Positions 1 through 7,368 of a DNA stretch of 64,000 nt are shown piece by piece. The DNA is from Naegleria gruberi. Taxonomy: Eukaryota. Numbering within the stretch: position 1 is the first letter of the stretch; every line of letters starts with the position of its first letter. Location of the stretch: the NCBI GenBank assembly GCA_000004985.1, contig GG738845.1; one strand, given 5' to 3'. Under the pieces are notes generated by a model. That model worked only from the letters and a program-made list of their open reading frames with translations, did no database searches and had not been told where the DNA came from. The translations under genes were made by a program, and so were the position numbers.

Positions 1-45
1 AAAATCAAAAGAATTATCAAATACAAAAAAATTAATCGATTAAAA

Positions 46-951
46 ATGTTGTCGTCATCATCAGAAAAGAAGGTTCCAGTGCCAGTGCCTGGACAAAGAA
101 ATATTTTAATTACTAGTGCTTTACCCTATGTTAATAACTATCCTCACTTGGGAAATATTGTTGGTGCTGTTTTGAGTGCTGATGTATTTTCTCGTTATTG
201 TAAACAAAAAGGATACAATACTCTTTATATTTGTGGTACCGATGAATATGGTACTGCAACAGAAACAAAGGCTTTCCAAGAAAAGACTACACCAGAAGCC
301 ATTTGTGCTAAATATTATCAACTTCACAAACAAGTTTATGAATGGTTTGATATTGATTTTGACCACTTCGGAAGAACTAGTACAAAGCAACAAACAGAAA
401 TTGCTCAAGACATTTTCTTAAAACTTCATCAAAATGGATTTTTGACTGAAAAGACTATTGAACAATTATATGATGAAGAGAGTAAGACATTTTTGGCTGA
501 TAGATTTGTCAAAGGTACTTGTCCAACTTGTTTATATGAAGATGCTCGTGGTGACCAATGTGACAAATGTGGAAAATTGTTGAATCCTACTGAACTTATT
601 AACCCACGTTCAACAACTACCGGTTCTGTACCAATCATCAAGGAAACAAATCACATTTTCATCAAGTTACAAGATTTGCAACACAAAACAAAGGAATGGT
701 TCCAAAATAATAAGGATACTGCTCAATGGACTACAGTTGCTCGTTCAATTACTCAATCTTGGTTTGATAAGGGACTTGAGGAAAGATGTATTACCAGAGA
801 TTTAAAGTGGGGTACTCCTGTTCCACTTGAAAAGTTTGCAGACAAGGTTTTCTATGTCTGGTTTGATGCTCCAATTGGTTACATTTCTATCACTGCTGAG
901 TTCTTTGATTCATTGGGTCAAGGTGATTTGATAATATTGATGAAGAATTGA
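46..951 (+). CDS. Methionyl-tRNA synthetase, N-terminal catalytic fragment (HIGH-like HLGN motif, Zn-knuckle CPTC...CDKC insertion, WFDAPIGY). Ends at an in-frame TGA before the KMSKS region.
   Basis: Supplied ORF; class-I aaRS motifs P-Y-V-N-N-Y-P-H-L-G-N and the MetRS connective-peptide zinc knuckle, recognised from memory. Only about 300 aa of an expected >=700 aa enzyme. Confidence 0.8.
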   Translation: MLSSSSEKKVPVPVPGQRNILITSALPYVNNYPHLGNIVGAVLSADVFSRYCKQKGYNTLYICGTDEYGTATETKAFQEKTTPEAICAKYYQLHKQVYEWFDIDFDHFGRTSTKQQTEIAQDIFLKLHQNGFLTEKTIEQLYDEESKTFLADRFVKGTCPTCLYEDARGDQCDKCGKLLNPTELINPRSTTTGSVPIIKETNHIFIKLQDLQHKTKEWFQNNKDTAQWTTVARSITQSWFDKGLEERCITRDLKWGTPVPLEKFADKVFYVWFDAPIGYISITAEFFDSLGQGDLIILMKN

Positions 952-961
952 ACTTGGATAG

Positions 962-1573
962 AGTCAAGGAGGTCACAAGATTGGTGAACCAGTTGGTTTG
1001 ATTAGAAAGATTGAAGATGCTGAAATTAAGGAATGGAAAAAGCGTTTTGGAGGTGGTGAAGATGAAATCTTCCAATTGGATTTGCGTGTTGGTCAAATTG
1101 AATCCGTTGAATTACACCCAGAAGCTGACAAGTTATATGTCTTTAATGTAAAGATTGCTGACACTGTAACTAGAAAGATTGTTGGTGGTTTGAGAGAAGC
1201 TTATCCAGAATCTGAAACCTTAATTGGTAAGAAGGTTGTTGTTGCTTGCAATTTGGCTGTTGCTAAATTGAAGGGTGTTGAAAGTGAAGGTATGCTCTTG
1301 GCCTCTAAGCAAAATGATGGAGTGACCTCATTGCTCACACCTTCAGGAGAGGCTCCACTTGGTGCTCAAATTTATCCAAAGGGTGCTGCTTTCAAACCAG
1401 AAAAGGTGTTGAAGAAGAATCCAACAAAGATTATTTTGGATTCTATCAAGATTGGTGAAAATAATGTCCCACTCTATAAGAATTTACCTTTGGTTGTTTT
1501 CGATAGTCAAAAGAAGGTAATTGCTCAAGTTGCTACTGAAAAGGACATTGCTCAAGGAAGTGGTGTTTTCTAA
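962..1573 (+). CDS. EMAP-II/Arc1p-like (Myf) tRNA-binding domain, the typical C-terminal appended domain of eukaryotic MetRS. It lies in a different frame from the upstream MetRS fragment.
   Basis: ORF 998..1573 is open back to 962. The LDLRVGQIESVELHPEADKLYVFNV...GMLLA pattern is characteristic of the OB-fold tRNA-binding domain. Confidence 0.75.
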   Translation, partial: SQGGHKIGEPVGLIRKIEDAEIKEWKKRFGGGEDEIFQLDLRVGQIESVELHPEADKLYVFNVKIADTVTRKIVGGLREAYPESETLIGKKVVVACNLAVAKLKGVESEGMLLASKQNDGVTSLLTPSGEAPLGAQIYPKGAAFKPEKVLKKNPTKIILDSIKIGENNVPLYKNLPLVVFDSQKKVIAQVATEKDIAQGSGVF

Positions 1574-1733
1574 ATAAATTATTTTTGTACAACACTTTAA
1601 TAATTTGCTAGAGCATCCATAGCACTCTTGGCATCTTTTCTTGTTGCCTTTTTCCTCTTCTTTTTGATCATTTGCACTTCTCCAATTCCAGAAATAAGTG
1701 AGCTATCTCTCTTTTTGGATTCCTCACTATTGA

Positions 1734-2390
1734 TTATTTCTTCCTCAATGGTAACTTTTGGTTCATCATCTCTTCATCCTCTAAATGCACTCGTTTCTGT
1801 TTATAAAAATCATTAATTTCTTCCAACTCGTTCTGTGTAAATTCCTCTTTAGTTTGTTCCTCTTGTTCTTTTTCTTCTTGTAATTTTTCTAGCAAGTGAT
1901 CAGTCGATATCTTATTTTGTAAATTTTTAATTGTTTTTATAGAATCCAATACATCCAAATCTTCCAATTCTTGCTTACTATCGAGTGTTTTACTTTCCAA
2001 TTTTTTCATTGCATCTTCATCTTCATTATTATCATGTATTTCATCTGATCCATTATGCTTTGGTGGAAACGATCGAACACAATTATGTTCAGGAACGTAA
2101 CCACTATTTTTTGGATCAGTTTTAAATGTGACTTCGCTAGCACATCTAGTACATCTAATATAAAATCTAAATACTTTTAATCCTAAATATTCCTCTCCTT
2201 GAACTGTTTCCTTTCGGGAGTTGAATTTTTTTCCCTGATACATAAATTCTCCACAAACAGAACATTGTACCGTCATTGGCAACATCATTCTAATTTTGAC
2301 TTGGTTAGTCACAGCCACTTTCCTTCTCGGAATTTGGCTTGGATCAAACTCTGGGTGATAATACTTTTGAATAACTTTTCTTTCTGCCAT
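1734..2390 (-). CDS. Splicing factor YJU2/CWC16 (CCDC94/CCDC130 family)
   Basis: N-terminal MAERKV..KYY.P.FDPS.IPR and the CxxC...CxxC Zn-ribbon are typical of the CWC16/YJU2 family. The C-terminus is acidic and coiled-coil. Confidence 0.8.
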   Translation of the reverse strand: MAERKVIQKYYHPEFDPSQIPRRKVAVTNQVKIRMMLPMTVQCSVCGEFMYQGKKFNSRKETVQGEEYLGLKVFRFYIRCTRCASEVTFKTDPKNSGYVPEHNCVRSFPPKHNGSDEIHDNNEDEDAMKKLESKTLDSKQELEDLDVLDSIKTIKNLQNKISTDHLLEKLQEEKEQEEQTKEEFTQNELEEINDFYKQKRVHLEDEEMMNQKLPLRKK

Positions 2391-2641: not shown

Positions 2642-3214
2642 ATGAGTTCTGCTAATCGTGAAGATTTGACCCTCCCTAAACAAACCATTGTCAAAATTAT
2701 CAAGGAACATTTGGGAGAGTCGATCAAATGTGCTGCCGATACTAGAGAATTGATCGTAGAGTGTTGTGTAGAGTTTGTACAAATGATTGCTGCTGAGTCG
2801 AATTCTATTTGTGAATCGGATAAGAGAAAGACTATTGCTGGAGAACATGTTACAGAGGCTTTGAGAAGATTGGGCTATTCTGAATATTTAGGATTGGTTA
2901 ATGAAGCCCACAACCAACACAAGGTTGAATCCTCAAGACATAACAATGCTTCAAAGAAGTTGAAAAATTCTGGTAAAACTGAGGAAGAATTAATTTCGGA
3001 ACAACACAAATTAATTGCTCAATCCAGAGCAAGATTGATCGGTAATGGTGGTGCAACACAAACACCAACCACAGCAGTTAGTACTAATTTTCCAACCTTT
3101 CCACAACAACAACACTATCAACAACAACAACAACCTAATTATTATACTTCTCCTCTAGTTCCTCCTCCATTGGCTAATGCTCAAAGAGGAGAAATCATCC
3201 CATCAAATATCTAG
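2642..3214 (+). CDS. Negative cofactor 2 beta (NC2-beta / Dr1), histone-fold TBP-binding repressor. C-terminal Q-rich tail.
   Basis: LPKQTIVKIIKE...AADTRELIVECCVEFVQMIAAESN...KRKTIAGEHVTEAL matches the Dr1/NCB2 histone-fold. The CAA-repeat poly-Q near the 3' end is at about 3100..3135. Confidence 0.8.
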   Translation: MSSANREDLTLPKQTIVKIIKEHLGESIKCAADTRELIVECCVEFVQMIAAESNSICESDKRKTIAGEHVTEALRRLGYSEYLGLVNEAHNQHKVESSRHNNASKKLKNSGKTEEELISEQHKLIAQSRARLIGNGGATQTPTTAVSTNFPTFPQQQHYQQQQQPNYYTSPLVPPPLANAQRGEIIPSNI

Positions 3215-3463: not shown

Positions 3464-3898
3464 TTACAATCCTTGAGAAATTAAGAATCTTGAAAAGTTT
3501 TCACAATCCAAATAACACTCCGCTGGTTCGTTTGAAATTCCATACATGACAACCAATAGTGCTTGATTTGTTTTAAATAAATAACATCCCTCCACTCCAT
3601 TCTTTCCACATAATACACGATCTTTTATCACATTAGTAACAATAAATTGTTTGTTCAATAATTGTACACTATTCTTGACAACATTTTGATCATTCAAAAT
3701 GTCAGGATTTTCAATAACATCCAAAACATTATCCAACCAAGCTGTTGAACATTCTTCACCTCCTAGATTAGGATCACTTGAAAAATTTGATGTTTTTGCC
3801 CAAACACCTCTATCCGAAATACTAACAAGAGCTCCGTGTGTTGCATTGCCGTTTTGAATAATTTCTTTTTCAATAAAATCCTTCCACTCTTCTGACAT
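3464..3898 (-). CDS. Profilin
   Basis: 144 aa. N-terminal W...I and a C-terminal ...CYLDCENFSRFLISQGL like the profilin C-helix (…YL…G(L/Y)). Size and overall pattern fit. Confidence 0.7.
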   Translation of the reverse strand: MSEEWKDFIEKEIIQNGNATHGALVSISDRGVWAKTSNFSSDPNLGGEECSTAWLDNVLDVIENPDILNDQNVVKNSVQLLNKQFIVTNVIKDRVLCGKNGVEGCYLFKTNQALLVVMYGISNEPAECYLDCENFSRFLISQGL

Positions 3899-5890: not shown

Positions 5891-7368
5891 TTACATTTTC
5901 GGTGTATAATATTTGAATTTGATCGATTTCTTCTTTTTAACAAGTGTACCCTCATTAATAAAATCTCCATACTCATTACCAAGAATATTTACAACCGTGA
6001 CAGGTGTTTGTGGACTCTTTTTGATTTTTGATGGTTTGGAGATTTTCTGAATGGGTTGAGAGTTGTAATTTCTTTGAGGAGTAATAGCGCATTCATCATG
6101 TAAAGATACATCATTCCAAGCATTGTTTTGATTGGACTGAAAATTTGGAACACTTCCAGCAGAAGATACCACTGTTGTGTCTATCTTTGTTATAGATCCT
6201 CTTCTTGTTATATTTCTCGTACTATTTATGACCTGATGTTCATGCTTATCAAANNNNNNNNNNNNNNNNNNNNNNNNNNNNNNNNNNNNNNNNNNNNNNN
6301 NNNNNNNNNNNNNNNNNNNNNNNNNNNNNNNNNNNNNNNNNNNNNNNNNNNNNNNNNNNNNNNNNNNNNNNNNNNNNNNNNNNNNNNNNNNNNNNNNNNN
6401 NNNNNNNNNNNNNNNNNNNNNNNNNNNNNNNNNNNNNNNNNNNNNNNNNNNNNNNNNNNNNNNNNNNNNNNNNNNNNNNNNNNNNNNNNNNNNNNNNNNN
6501 NNNNNNNNNNNNNNNNNNNNNNNNNNNNNNNNNNNNNNNNNNNNNNNNNNNNNNNNNNNNNNNNNNNNNNNNNNNNNNNNNNNNNNNNNNNNNNNNNNNN
6601 NNNNNNNNNNNNNNNNNNNNNNNNNNNNNNNNNNNNNNNNNNNNNNNNNNNNNNNNNNNNNNNNNNNNNNNNNNNNNNNNNNNNNNNNNNNNNNNNNNNN
6701 NNNNNNNNNNNNNNNNNNNNNNNNNNNNATGAGCTATTATTAAGGGATGGACCAAAACGACATGTCGAGCTTGAGGATGGGGAGTTATTAAATTGACAAT
6801 TATTATGTTGAGGGTATTGGCGAGGTGGACTGGAATGGTGGAGAAGGTTATGTTGACTATTCAAATGTATGGAGTGAGCCTGACTTGTATTTGAATTTGG
6901 TGAGTGGAGATCTCCTGAAGAAGGTTCGCTATTGCCATTATTGAACATATGGACTTGAGGTGGAGAGGAAGTATTAAGGTTGTGGAATGAATGTTGTTGG
7001 TGGTGGTAGAATTGGGATTGATTTACATGTGTGGAGGAATGATTAGCAGAGCATGGTGGATTATTGACAGCATGGTTTGACCAGGAGGATGATGATGGAG
7101 GAGTATTAATAGCACTGGAATGTTGTTGAGGATTGTTATGAGTGGATTGGAATGTATTGGTTGGAGACACACAGTGGAACGAAGTGGCTCCTTGTGAGGC
7201 TTGTGATGAAAAAGAAGTTTGTCGTGTTAGTACTGAAGCATTATTGCTGCTCGACGTCGAGAACTTTGTAGTGCTATTCTGAGGAGAAGATCTATGACTG
7301 TAACTGTAGATACTTGTTGTTTGCTGATTAATAATATTATTATTATTATTAAGGTGATTCATTTTCAT
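5891..7368 (-). CDS. Low-complexity Ser/Asn/Gln/His-rich protein (poly-N, poly-Q) of unknown function. The coding region is interrupted by the assembly gap.
   Basis: ORFs 6226..7368 and 5891..6172 are in-line on the minus strand either side of the N-run. Strong compositional bias; no recognisable domain. Confidence 0.45.
6254..6728. other. Assembly gap (475 N)
   Basis: Run of n characters in the sequence. Confidence 1.

What the first reader, a model, noticed from the sequence alone, without database searches (positions are those of the whole stretch)
46..1573. MetRS gene lacks about 300-400 codons of its catalytic core (KMSKS region and anticodon-binding domain) and changes frame
The N-terminal 301 aa is a bona fide MetRS start: HIGH-like motif, Zn knuckle, WFDAPIGY. 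It ends at TGA 949-951. Only 11 nt later, in another frame, the C-terminal EMAP-II/Arc1p-like tRNA-binding domain begins. No GT..AG pair can join them, and the whole central region of the enzyme is absent. Three explanations are possible. One is an assembly collapse or mis-join. One is a recently decayed pseudogene, with a functional MetRS elsewhere. One is a truncated paralogue expressing only a standalone Arc1p-like tRNA-binding protein from an internal start.
Basis: partly seen in the sequence, partly recalled or inferred. Interest (0 to 1): 0.55.

Follow-up and report, generated by a model that had tools for sequence, protein, structure and literature searches.

The report
Broken MetRS gene in draft reference
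The Naegleria gruberi reference sequence lacks 722 bases from the middle of its only cytosolic methionyl-tRNA synthetase gene, but an independent, near-identical sequence has the gene intact, so this is most likely a flaw in the draft assembly, or at most one damaged allele.

Summary
Window 46-1573 holds the two ends of a MetRS gene in three different frames, and the KMSKS region and most of the anticodon-binding domain are missing. The window is Naegleria gruberi; the annotated protein is XP_002683222, 487 aa.

An independent ENA contig (L001) encodes an intact 749-aa MetRS that is identical in every shared codon. Against it, the window lacks 721 nt at 930/931 and one T at 963/964. That is about 241 codons, not 300-400. 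Putting those bases back reproduces the 749-aa protein exactly.

The locus is the single, intronless, syntenic orthologue of the N. fowleri and Willaertia genes. No second N. gruberi MetRS of this type is in the protein database. The tail has no AUG upstream of the tRNA-binding domain, so a standalone Arc1p-like protein is not supported.

The neighbouring Yju2 gene is also frameshifted, by 2 extra nt. An N-gap lies 5 kb away. Differences from the independent data here are mostly indels, whereas elsewhere they are mostly SNPs.

Best reading: a draft-sequence artefact (about 0.7). Next: a real allele-specific deletion (about 0.2). Low interest.

The parts
46..930 (+). MetRS codons 1-295: first part of the Rossmann fold with the HLGN motif, the zinc-knuckle connective peptide, and WFDAPIGY...GQGDL.
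   Evidence: Identical to L001 210-1094.
930..931 (+). Junction of the 721-nt deletion relative to the intact gene (L001 1095-1815). It removes aa 296-536, including KFSKS (aa 353-357), the last third of the catalytic domain and most of the anticodon-binding helical domain. It shifts the frame by 1.
   Evidence: The breakpoint flanks share no similarity above chance.
931..963 (+). 33 nt encoding (N)NIDEELNLDRV (MetRS aa 537-547), read in the third frame in the window.
949..951 (+). Premature TGA that ends the 301-aa ORF. It is out-of-frame sequence that follows the deletion.
963..964 (+). Second lesion: one T is missing (L001 has GAGTTCAAGG, the window has GAG-TCAAGG). It shifts the frame again.
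964..1573 (+). MetRS aa 548-749 plus the stop codon: the end of the anticodon domain (GHKIGEP...KIED), then the tRNA_bind/EMAPII-like C-terminal domain.
900..963 (+). 64-nt GT..AG 'intron' of the public gene model XP_002683222 (NAEGRDRAFT_77798). It is made of MetRS coding sequence and is a modelling device that bridges the frameshifts.
   Evidence: the spliced translation equals P0001. The orthologues are intronless.
1597..2390 (-). Convergent neighbour gene Yju2/Saf4. In the window it is frameshifted by 2 extra nt (CT) at about 1771-1772. The annotated protein is the truncated 218-aa ORF 1734..2390, while the conserved C-terminus ...DALANY* continues in another frame to the stop at 1597-1599.
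6254..6728 (.). Run of 475 N, a sequencing gap. The broken genes therefore lie in a contig that extends no further than 6253 on this side, within a draft scaffold.

Best explanation
Window 46-1573 is the single cytosolic MetRS gene of Naegleria gruberi. In life it is an intronless gene of 749 codons: a class I catalytic core, an anticodon-binding domain and a C-terminal EMAPII-like tRNA-binding domain.

The reference sequence misrepresents it. A 721-nt block is missing at 930/931, and one T is missing 33 nt further on. I take these, together with a 2-nt insertion that frameshifts the neighbouring Yju2 gene, to be defects of a poorly covered stretch of the Sanger draft assembly. The cause could be a deleted or chimeric clone, a false join, or low-quality base calls. 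I do not take them to be features of the gene the amoeba uses.

The annotated 487-aa 'MetRS' is a gene model that hides the damage behind an invented 64-nt intron.

Shown: the lesions themselves, their exact size, the existence of an intact and otherwise identical gene in independent data, the orthology of the locus, and how the model was built.

Inferred: that the lesions arose during cloning, sequencing or assembly rather than in the cell.
For: 1. Restoring L001 1095-1815 and one T gives exactly the 749-aa P0002. There are no other coding differences in about 1500 nt.
2. The N. fowleri and Willaertia orthologues are intronless, 749 and 765 aa. In N. fowleri the MetRS gene is followed by a convergent Yju2 gene, as in the window.
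3. The only N. gruberi protein of this family in a 5.8-billion-protein database is the 487-aa model. No other N. gruberi sequence holds the middle segment. A cytosolic MetRS is indispensable (established knowledge), so an intact copy must exist in the strain.
4. Three frame-breaking indels (721, 1 and 2 nt) hit two essential genes within 850 nt, against only 1 substitution in 1.78 kb.
5. Contigs from the same independent sample that cover 7.0 kb elsewhere in the window differ by 22 SNPs and 6 indels, none of them frame-breaking. SNP versus indel by Fisher's exact test: p=0.008. Differences dominated by indels suggest sequence error rather than polymorphism.
6. An N-gap at 6254-6728 shows that this is a short contig in draft-quality sequence.
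7. The exact 301-aa ORF is found in no other dataset in the collection.
Against: No reads, quality values or scaffold coordinates could be examined, so a genuine deletion on one haplotype of the heterozygous NEG-M strain is not excluded.

The independent contig L001 comes from an unidentified ENA 'metagenome' run (ERR1078381). It differs from the reference by about 0.3% elsewhere, so it may be another strain or the other haplotype. It therefore shows that the intact gene exists, not that the reference strain lacks the deletion.

The breakpoints share no repeat that would explain an assembler collapse.

Three of the five small differences lie in the A-rich 5' UTR, where real indel polymorphism is common.
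Confidence: 0.7

Rival explanations
1. The deletion is real but allele-specific. One haplotype of the heterozygous, clonally propagated NEG-M strain carries a null MetRS allele (721-nt deletion plus 1 nt, perhaps from a single error-prone end-joining event). The assembler happened to choose that haplotype. The other allele supplies the enzyme.
For: N. gruberi is reported as heterozygous and presumed diploid (Fritz-Laylin 2010, as cited in PMC9928731). The independent contigs differ from the window by about 0.3% elsewhere, which could reflect a second haplotype. The junction has 2 nt or less of microhomology and a small indel 33 nt away, which is compatible with end-joining repair. The 5' UTR differs at 3 positions, as alleles might.
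Against: It does not explain the extra frameshift in the neighbouring essential gene Yju2, 808 nt away. It also does not explain the near-absence of substitutions beside three disruptive indels. The deleted ORF appears in no other dataset. The location in a short contig beside an N-gap fits poor coverage.
Confidence: 0.22
2. It is a decayed pseudogene copy, with a separate functional cytosolic MetRS locus elsewhere in the genome.
For: The gene as written cannot encode an active synthetase: it has no KMSKS motif and no anticodon domain.
Against: The locus is the syntenic orthologue, with MetRS followed by a convergent Yju2 gene as in N. fowleri. There are no substitutions relative to the intact sequence across about 1500 coding nt. 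No second N. gruberi MetRS of this type is in the database. L001 shares both flanks with the window.
Confidence: 0.04
3. It is a functional truncated paralogue. Either a standalone Arc1p/Trbp111-like tRNA-binding protein is made from an internal start, or the annotated 487-aa spliced protein is produced and acts as a non-catalytic tRNA-binding factor.
For: The tRNA_bind domain is intact. A GT..AG pair at 900/963 could join the halves in frame.
Against: The first in-frame AUG of the tail is residue 111, inside the OB fold. The ORF listed at 998 starts with TTG. The 'intron' is coding sequence in the intact gene, and the orthologues have no intron. Its 5' end, GTTCTT, is not what I recall as the usual GTAAGT/GTATGT-type donor; this was not tested here.
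Confidence: 0.02

Closest known systems
Eukaryotic cytosolic MetRS with a C-terminal EMAPII/Trbp111-like tRNA-binding domain (the architecture of N. fowleri FDP41_000217, Dictyostelium and plant MetRS)
   Same: The intact N. gruberi gene (P0002) has the same domain order: tRNA-synt_1g, Anticodon_3, tRNA_bind. It is 82% identical to N. fowleri over the shared parts.
   Different: The window copy lacks aa 296-536 and is frameshifted twice, so as written it cannot be a synthetase.
Draft-assembly indel or collapse errors hidden by gene models with invented introns
   Same: The public model XP_002683222 is exactly 46..899 + 964..1573, which skips 64 nt of coding sequence to restore the frame. The neighbouring gene is annotated as a truncated ORF. 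An N-gap lies nearby.
   Different: No repeat at the breakpoints explains a simple collapse. The artefact mechanism (deleted clone, false join or low-quality reads) remains unidentified.
Standalone tRNA-binding proteins Arc1p, AIMP1/p43 (EMAPII precursor) and Trbp111
   Same: They share the OB-fold tRNA_bind domain (Pfam PF01588).
   Different: There is no independent start codon or promoter here. The domain is the C-terminus of MetRS in all relatives.

Membership tests
Class I methionyl-tRNA synthetase (functional enzyme) | HIGH-type signature motif in the Rossmann fold | tested here: met
   PHLGN at aa 33-37, invariant in the alignment.
Class I methionyl-tRNA synthetase (functional enzyme) | KMSKS-type loop | tested here: not met
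   KFSKS lies at aa 353-357 of the intact P0002, inside the 721-nt block that the window lacks.
Class I methionyl-tRNA synthetase (functional enzyme) | Helical anticodon-binding domain (Pfam Anticodon_3) | tested here: not met
   P0002 matches profile positions 5-151. The window keeps only positions 122-151, below the gathering score.
Class I methionyl-tRNA synthetase (functional enzyme) | One continuous reading frame | tested here: not met
   Three frames are used, with a stop at 949-951.
Standalone Arc1p/Trbp111/EMAPII-like tRNA-binding protein | Complete tRNA_bind OB fold | tested here: met
   PF01588 positions 1-95 of 96, E=1.8e-25.
Standalone Arc1p/Trbp111/EMAPII-like tRNA-binding protein | Own AUG start upstream of the domain, as an independent gene | tested here: not met
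   The first Met of the frame is residue 111, within the domain. The upstream ORF start is TTG.
Decayed pseudogene with a functional copy at another locus | Accumulated substitutions or relaxed constraint relative to the functional copy | tested here: not met
   No coding substitutions versus the intact L001 in about 1500 nt.
Decayed pseudogene with a functional copy at another locus | A second locus with different flanks | tested here: not met
   L001 shares both flanks with the window. Synteny with N. fowleri is kept. No other N. gruberi protein was found. Unannotated scaffolds could not be searched.
Spliceosomal intron (window 900-963) | GT..AG boundaries that restore the frame | tested here: met
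   The spliced product equals P0001.
Spliceosomal intron (window 900-963) | Non-coding sequence that is absent from the mature message or from orthologues | tested here: not met
   The 64 nt encode EFFDSLGQGDL and NIDEELNLDRV of the intact protein. The orthologous genes are intronless.
Sequencing or assembly artefact | Read-level evidence: low coverage or quality, or a single clone, at the junction | not testable with these tools
   Only indirect evidence is available: indel-dominated differences, a nearby N-gap and a neighbouring frameshift.

The most novel reading that the evidence does not exclude
The 721-nt deletion, and perhaps the Yju2 frameshift, are real lesions on one haplotype of strain NEG-M. 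That would be an example of allelic decay of essential genes in a long-term clonally propagated, heterozygous amoeba, masked by the intact second allele.
Probability: 0.2. Interest if true: 0.2.

Novelty: not a real feature. Interest (0 to 1): 0.08.

Why it matters
The value is practical. The public N. gruberi MetRS entry (XP_002683222 / D2UYH8, 487 aa) and the adjacent Yju2 entry (218 aa) are wrong. Anyone using them in work on aaRS evolution, multi-synthetase complexes or drug targets would draw false conclusions, for example that MetRS lacks KMSKS. The correct 749-aa sequence can be reconstructed from this report. It says nothing new about the biology of tRNA synthetases.

Tried and rejected
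- Searched the rest of the window for the missing 721 nt: absent.
- Scanned JGI metagenome contigs for the left and right breakpoint flanks, to find further intact or deleted copies: 0 hits in both scans.
- Searched the literature for the run or project (PRJEB11402, ERR1078381) and for the gene and protein accessions: nothing relevant. The N. gruberi genome paper itself is not held.
- Tried to place the window within its scaffold by looking up window proteins in NCBI records. The NCBI N. gruberi genome is not in the position index. Whether the window starts at a scaffold end therefore remains a guess.
- Tested for a direct repeat at the breakpoints that could explain slippage or an assembler collapse: the score is reached by 17% of random pairs, so none.
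- Looked up the exact 301-aa and 191-aa ORFs in 15 billion proteins: neither is present.
- Checked profilin synteny with N. fowleri: the 140-aa neighbour there is unrelated. Only the MetRS-Yju2 adjacency is shared.

Full report
**What is in the sequence.** ORF 46..951 encodes 301 aa, and residues 20-289 match the class I MetRS catalytic domain. The Pfam tRNA-synt_1g match has E=2e-106 and covers profile positions 1-265 of 391. The match to human cytosolic MetRS 5gl7 has E=1e-116. The HLGN motif, the four-cysteine zinc knuckle and WFDAPIGY are all present. The ORF ends at TGA 949-951. A second frame from 962 to 1573 holds the last ~30 residues of the MetRS anticodon domain (GHKIGEP..KIED) and a complete tRNA_bind/EMAPII-like domain with E=2e-25. 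The third frame between them reads DNIDEELNLDRV.

**Whose gene it is.** A protein search returned two top hits. One is XP_002683222 / EFC50478 (NAEGRDRAFT_77798), a 'predicted protein' of Naegleria gruberi of 487 aa on a 1.56-Mb scaffold. The other is P0002, an unnamed 749-aa protein that is 100% identical over the shared parts. P0002 comes from a 2663-bp contig of an ENA assembly (ERZ929261, run ERR1078381), fetched as L001.

**Size and position of the lesions.** BLASTN gives L001 165-1094 = window 1-930 and L001 1816-2663 = window 931-1779. The window lacks L001 1095-1815, which is 721 nt. It also lacks one T of GAGTTCAAGG, at window 963/964. Inserting those 722 nt into the window gives exactly P0002. 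The missing residues are 296-536, about 241 codons rather than 300-400. They contain KFSKS at 353-357, the last third of the catalytic domain and most of Anticodon_3. The deletion of 721 nt followed by 1 nt accounts for the frame sequence 1, then 3, then 2.

**The gene model.** Splicing 46..899 to 964..1573 reproduces the 487-aa NCBI protein exactly. Those 64 nt are coding sequence in the intact gene. The N. fowleri (749 aa) and Willaertia magna (765 aa) genes are single uninterrupted ORFs. The 'intron' is a modelling device.

**Orthologue, not paralogue.**
- In N. fowleri the MetRS gene is followed by a convergent Yju2 gene, as in the window.
- L001 shares both flanks with the window.
- No other N. 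gruberi protein of this family appeared, either full-length or as a fragment carrying the middle segment (that search appears to list only proteins up to about 1.75 times the query length, and one search covers the longer ones).
- There are no substitutions in about 1500 coding nt relative to the intact sequence, so there is no sign of decay.
- The tail frame has no Met before residue 111, which lies inside the OB fold. A standalone Arc1p-like product from an AUG is therefore not available.

**Artefact or real allele?** I could not see reads, so this part is inference. Several observations point to a defect in the draft sequence.
- The convergent neighbour Yju2 is also broken in the window. 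Two extra nucleotides (CATCTCTTCATCC versus CATCTTCATCC in L001) cut the annotated protein to 218 aa.
- The conserved Yju2 C-terminus (KKRDSS...DALANY*) continues in another frame to 1597-1599. It aligns with N. fowleri, N. lovaniensis and another Naegleria sequence.
- Over 1.78 kb the window differs from L001 by 5 indels and 1 substitution. Three of those indels are frame-breaking, and they fall in two essential genes.
- Two other contigs from the same independent sample cover 7.0 kb elsewhere in the window. They differ by 22 substitutions and 6 indels, and every indel is non-coding or a multiple of three. Fisher's exact test gives p=0.008.
- A 475-N gap at 6254-6728 shows that the genes sit in a short contig of a draft scaffold.
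- The deleted ORF occurs in no other dataset in the collection.

Mutation in vivo would normally produce more substitutions than disruptive indels. Low-coverage Sanger consensus, a deleted clone or a false join produces exactly this pattern.

Against the artefact reading:
- The breakpoints share no repeat above chance.
- N. gruberi is reported to be heterozygous (PMC9928731, citing the genome paper).
- The independent sample may be another strain or the other haplotype.

My estimates are artefact about 0.7, a real allele-specific deletion about 0.2, and everything else under 0.1. Either way the organism must carry, and near-identical DNA demonstrably carries, an intact 749-aa MetRS.

**Comparison with known things and novelty.** The intact gene is an ordinary eukaryotic cytosolic MetRS with a C-terminal EMAPII-like domain, as in N. 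fowleri, dictyostelids and plants. The window copy fails the defining tests for an active synthetase: it has no KMSKS motif, no anticodon domain and no continuous frame. It also fails the tests for a standalone tRNA-binding protein, for a decayed pseudogene at a second locus, and for a real intron. Nothing new about biology follows from it. The useful outcome is a correction of two public protein entries.

**Dead ends.** The second search of JGI metagenomes, like the first, found nothing. Literature searches for the run, project and accessions found nothing relevant. Attempts to obtain scaffold coordinates failed.

Noticed in passing
window 1597-2390 (minus strand), lesion at about 1771-1772: The splicing-factor gene Yju2/Saf4 is frameshifted in the reference by 2 extra nt (CT) relative to the independent contig L001. 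The public protein (218 aa, P0241) lacks the conserved ~45-residue C-terminus that is present in N. fowleri, N. lovaniensis and another Naegleria. The reconstructed protein is 263 aa.
   Followed up: yes
window 6254-6728: A run of 475 N, a scaffold gap. The ORF listed at 6226..7368 (minus strand) runs through it and is not a real ORF.
   Followed up: partly
window 1571-1599: The stop codons of the convergent MetRS and Yju2 genes are only 23 nt apart, so their 3' UTRs must overlap or be extremely short.
   Followed up: no
window 21-36: Three differences from L001 fall within 16 nt of the A-rich 5' UTR of MetRS: two 1-nt indels and one substitution. That is far denser than the ~0.3% seen elsewhere. 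It could reflect a low-quality read end at a contig or scaffold start, or a hypervariable A-tract.
   Followed up: partly
L001, L005, L006, L007 (ENA ERZ929261 / Logan ERR1078381): A run labelled 'metagenome' contains DNA 99.0-99.7% identical to N. gruberi NEG-M across at least 8.8 kb of this window (SNPs about 0.3%, in-frame indels of 3-15 nt). It is either the same strain's other haplotype or a very close strain. The sample could not be identified.
   Followed up: partly
window 2642-3214 (+) and 3464-3898 (-): An NC2-beta/Dr1-like histone-fold protein (190 aa) and a profilin (144 aa) lie just downstream. Both appear intact. The profilin is identical at protein level in the independent sample.
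   Followed up: partly
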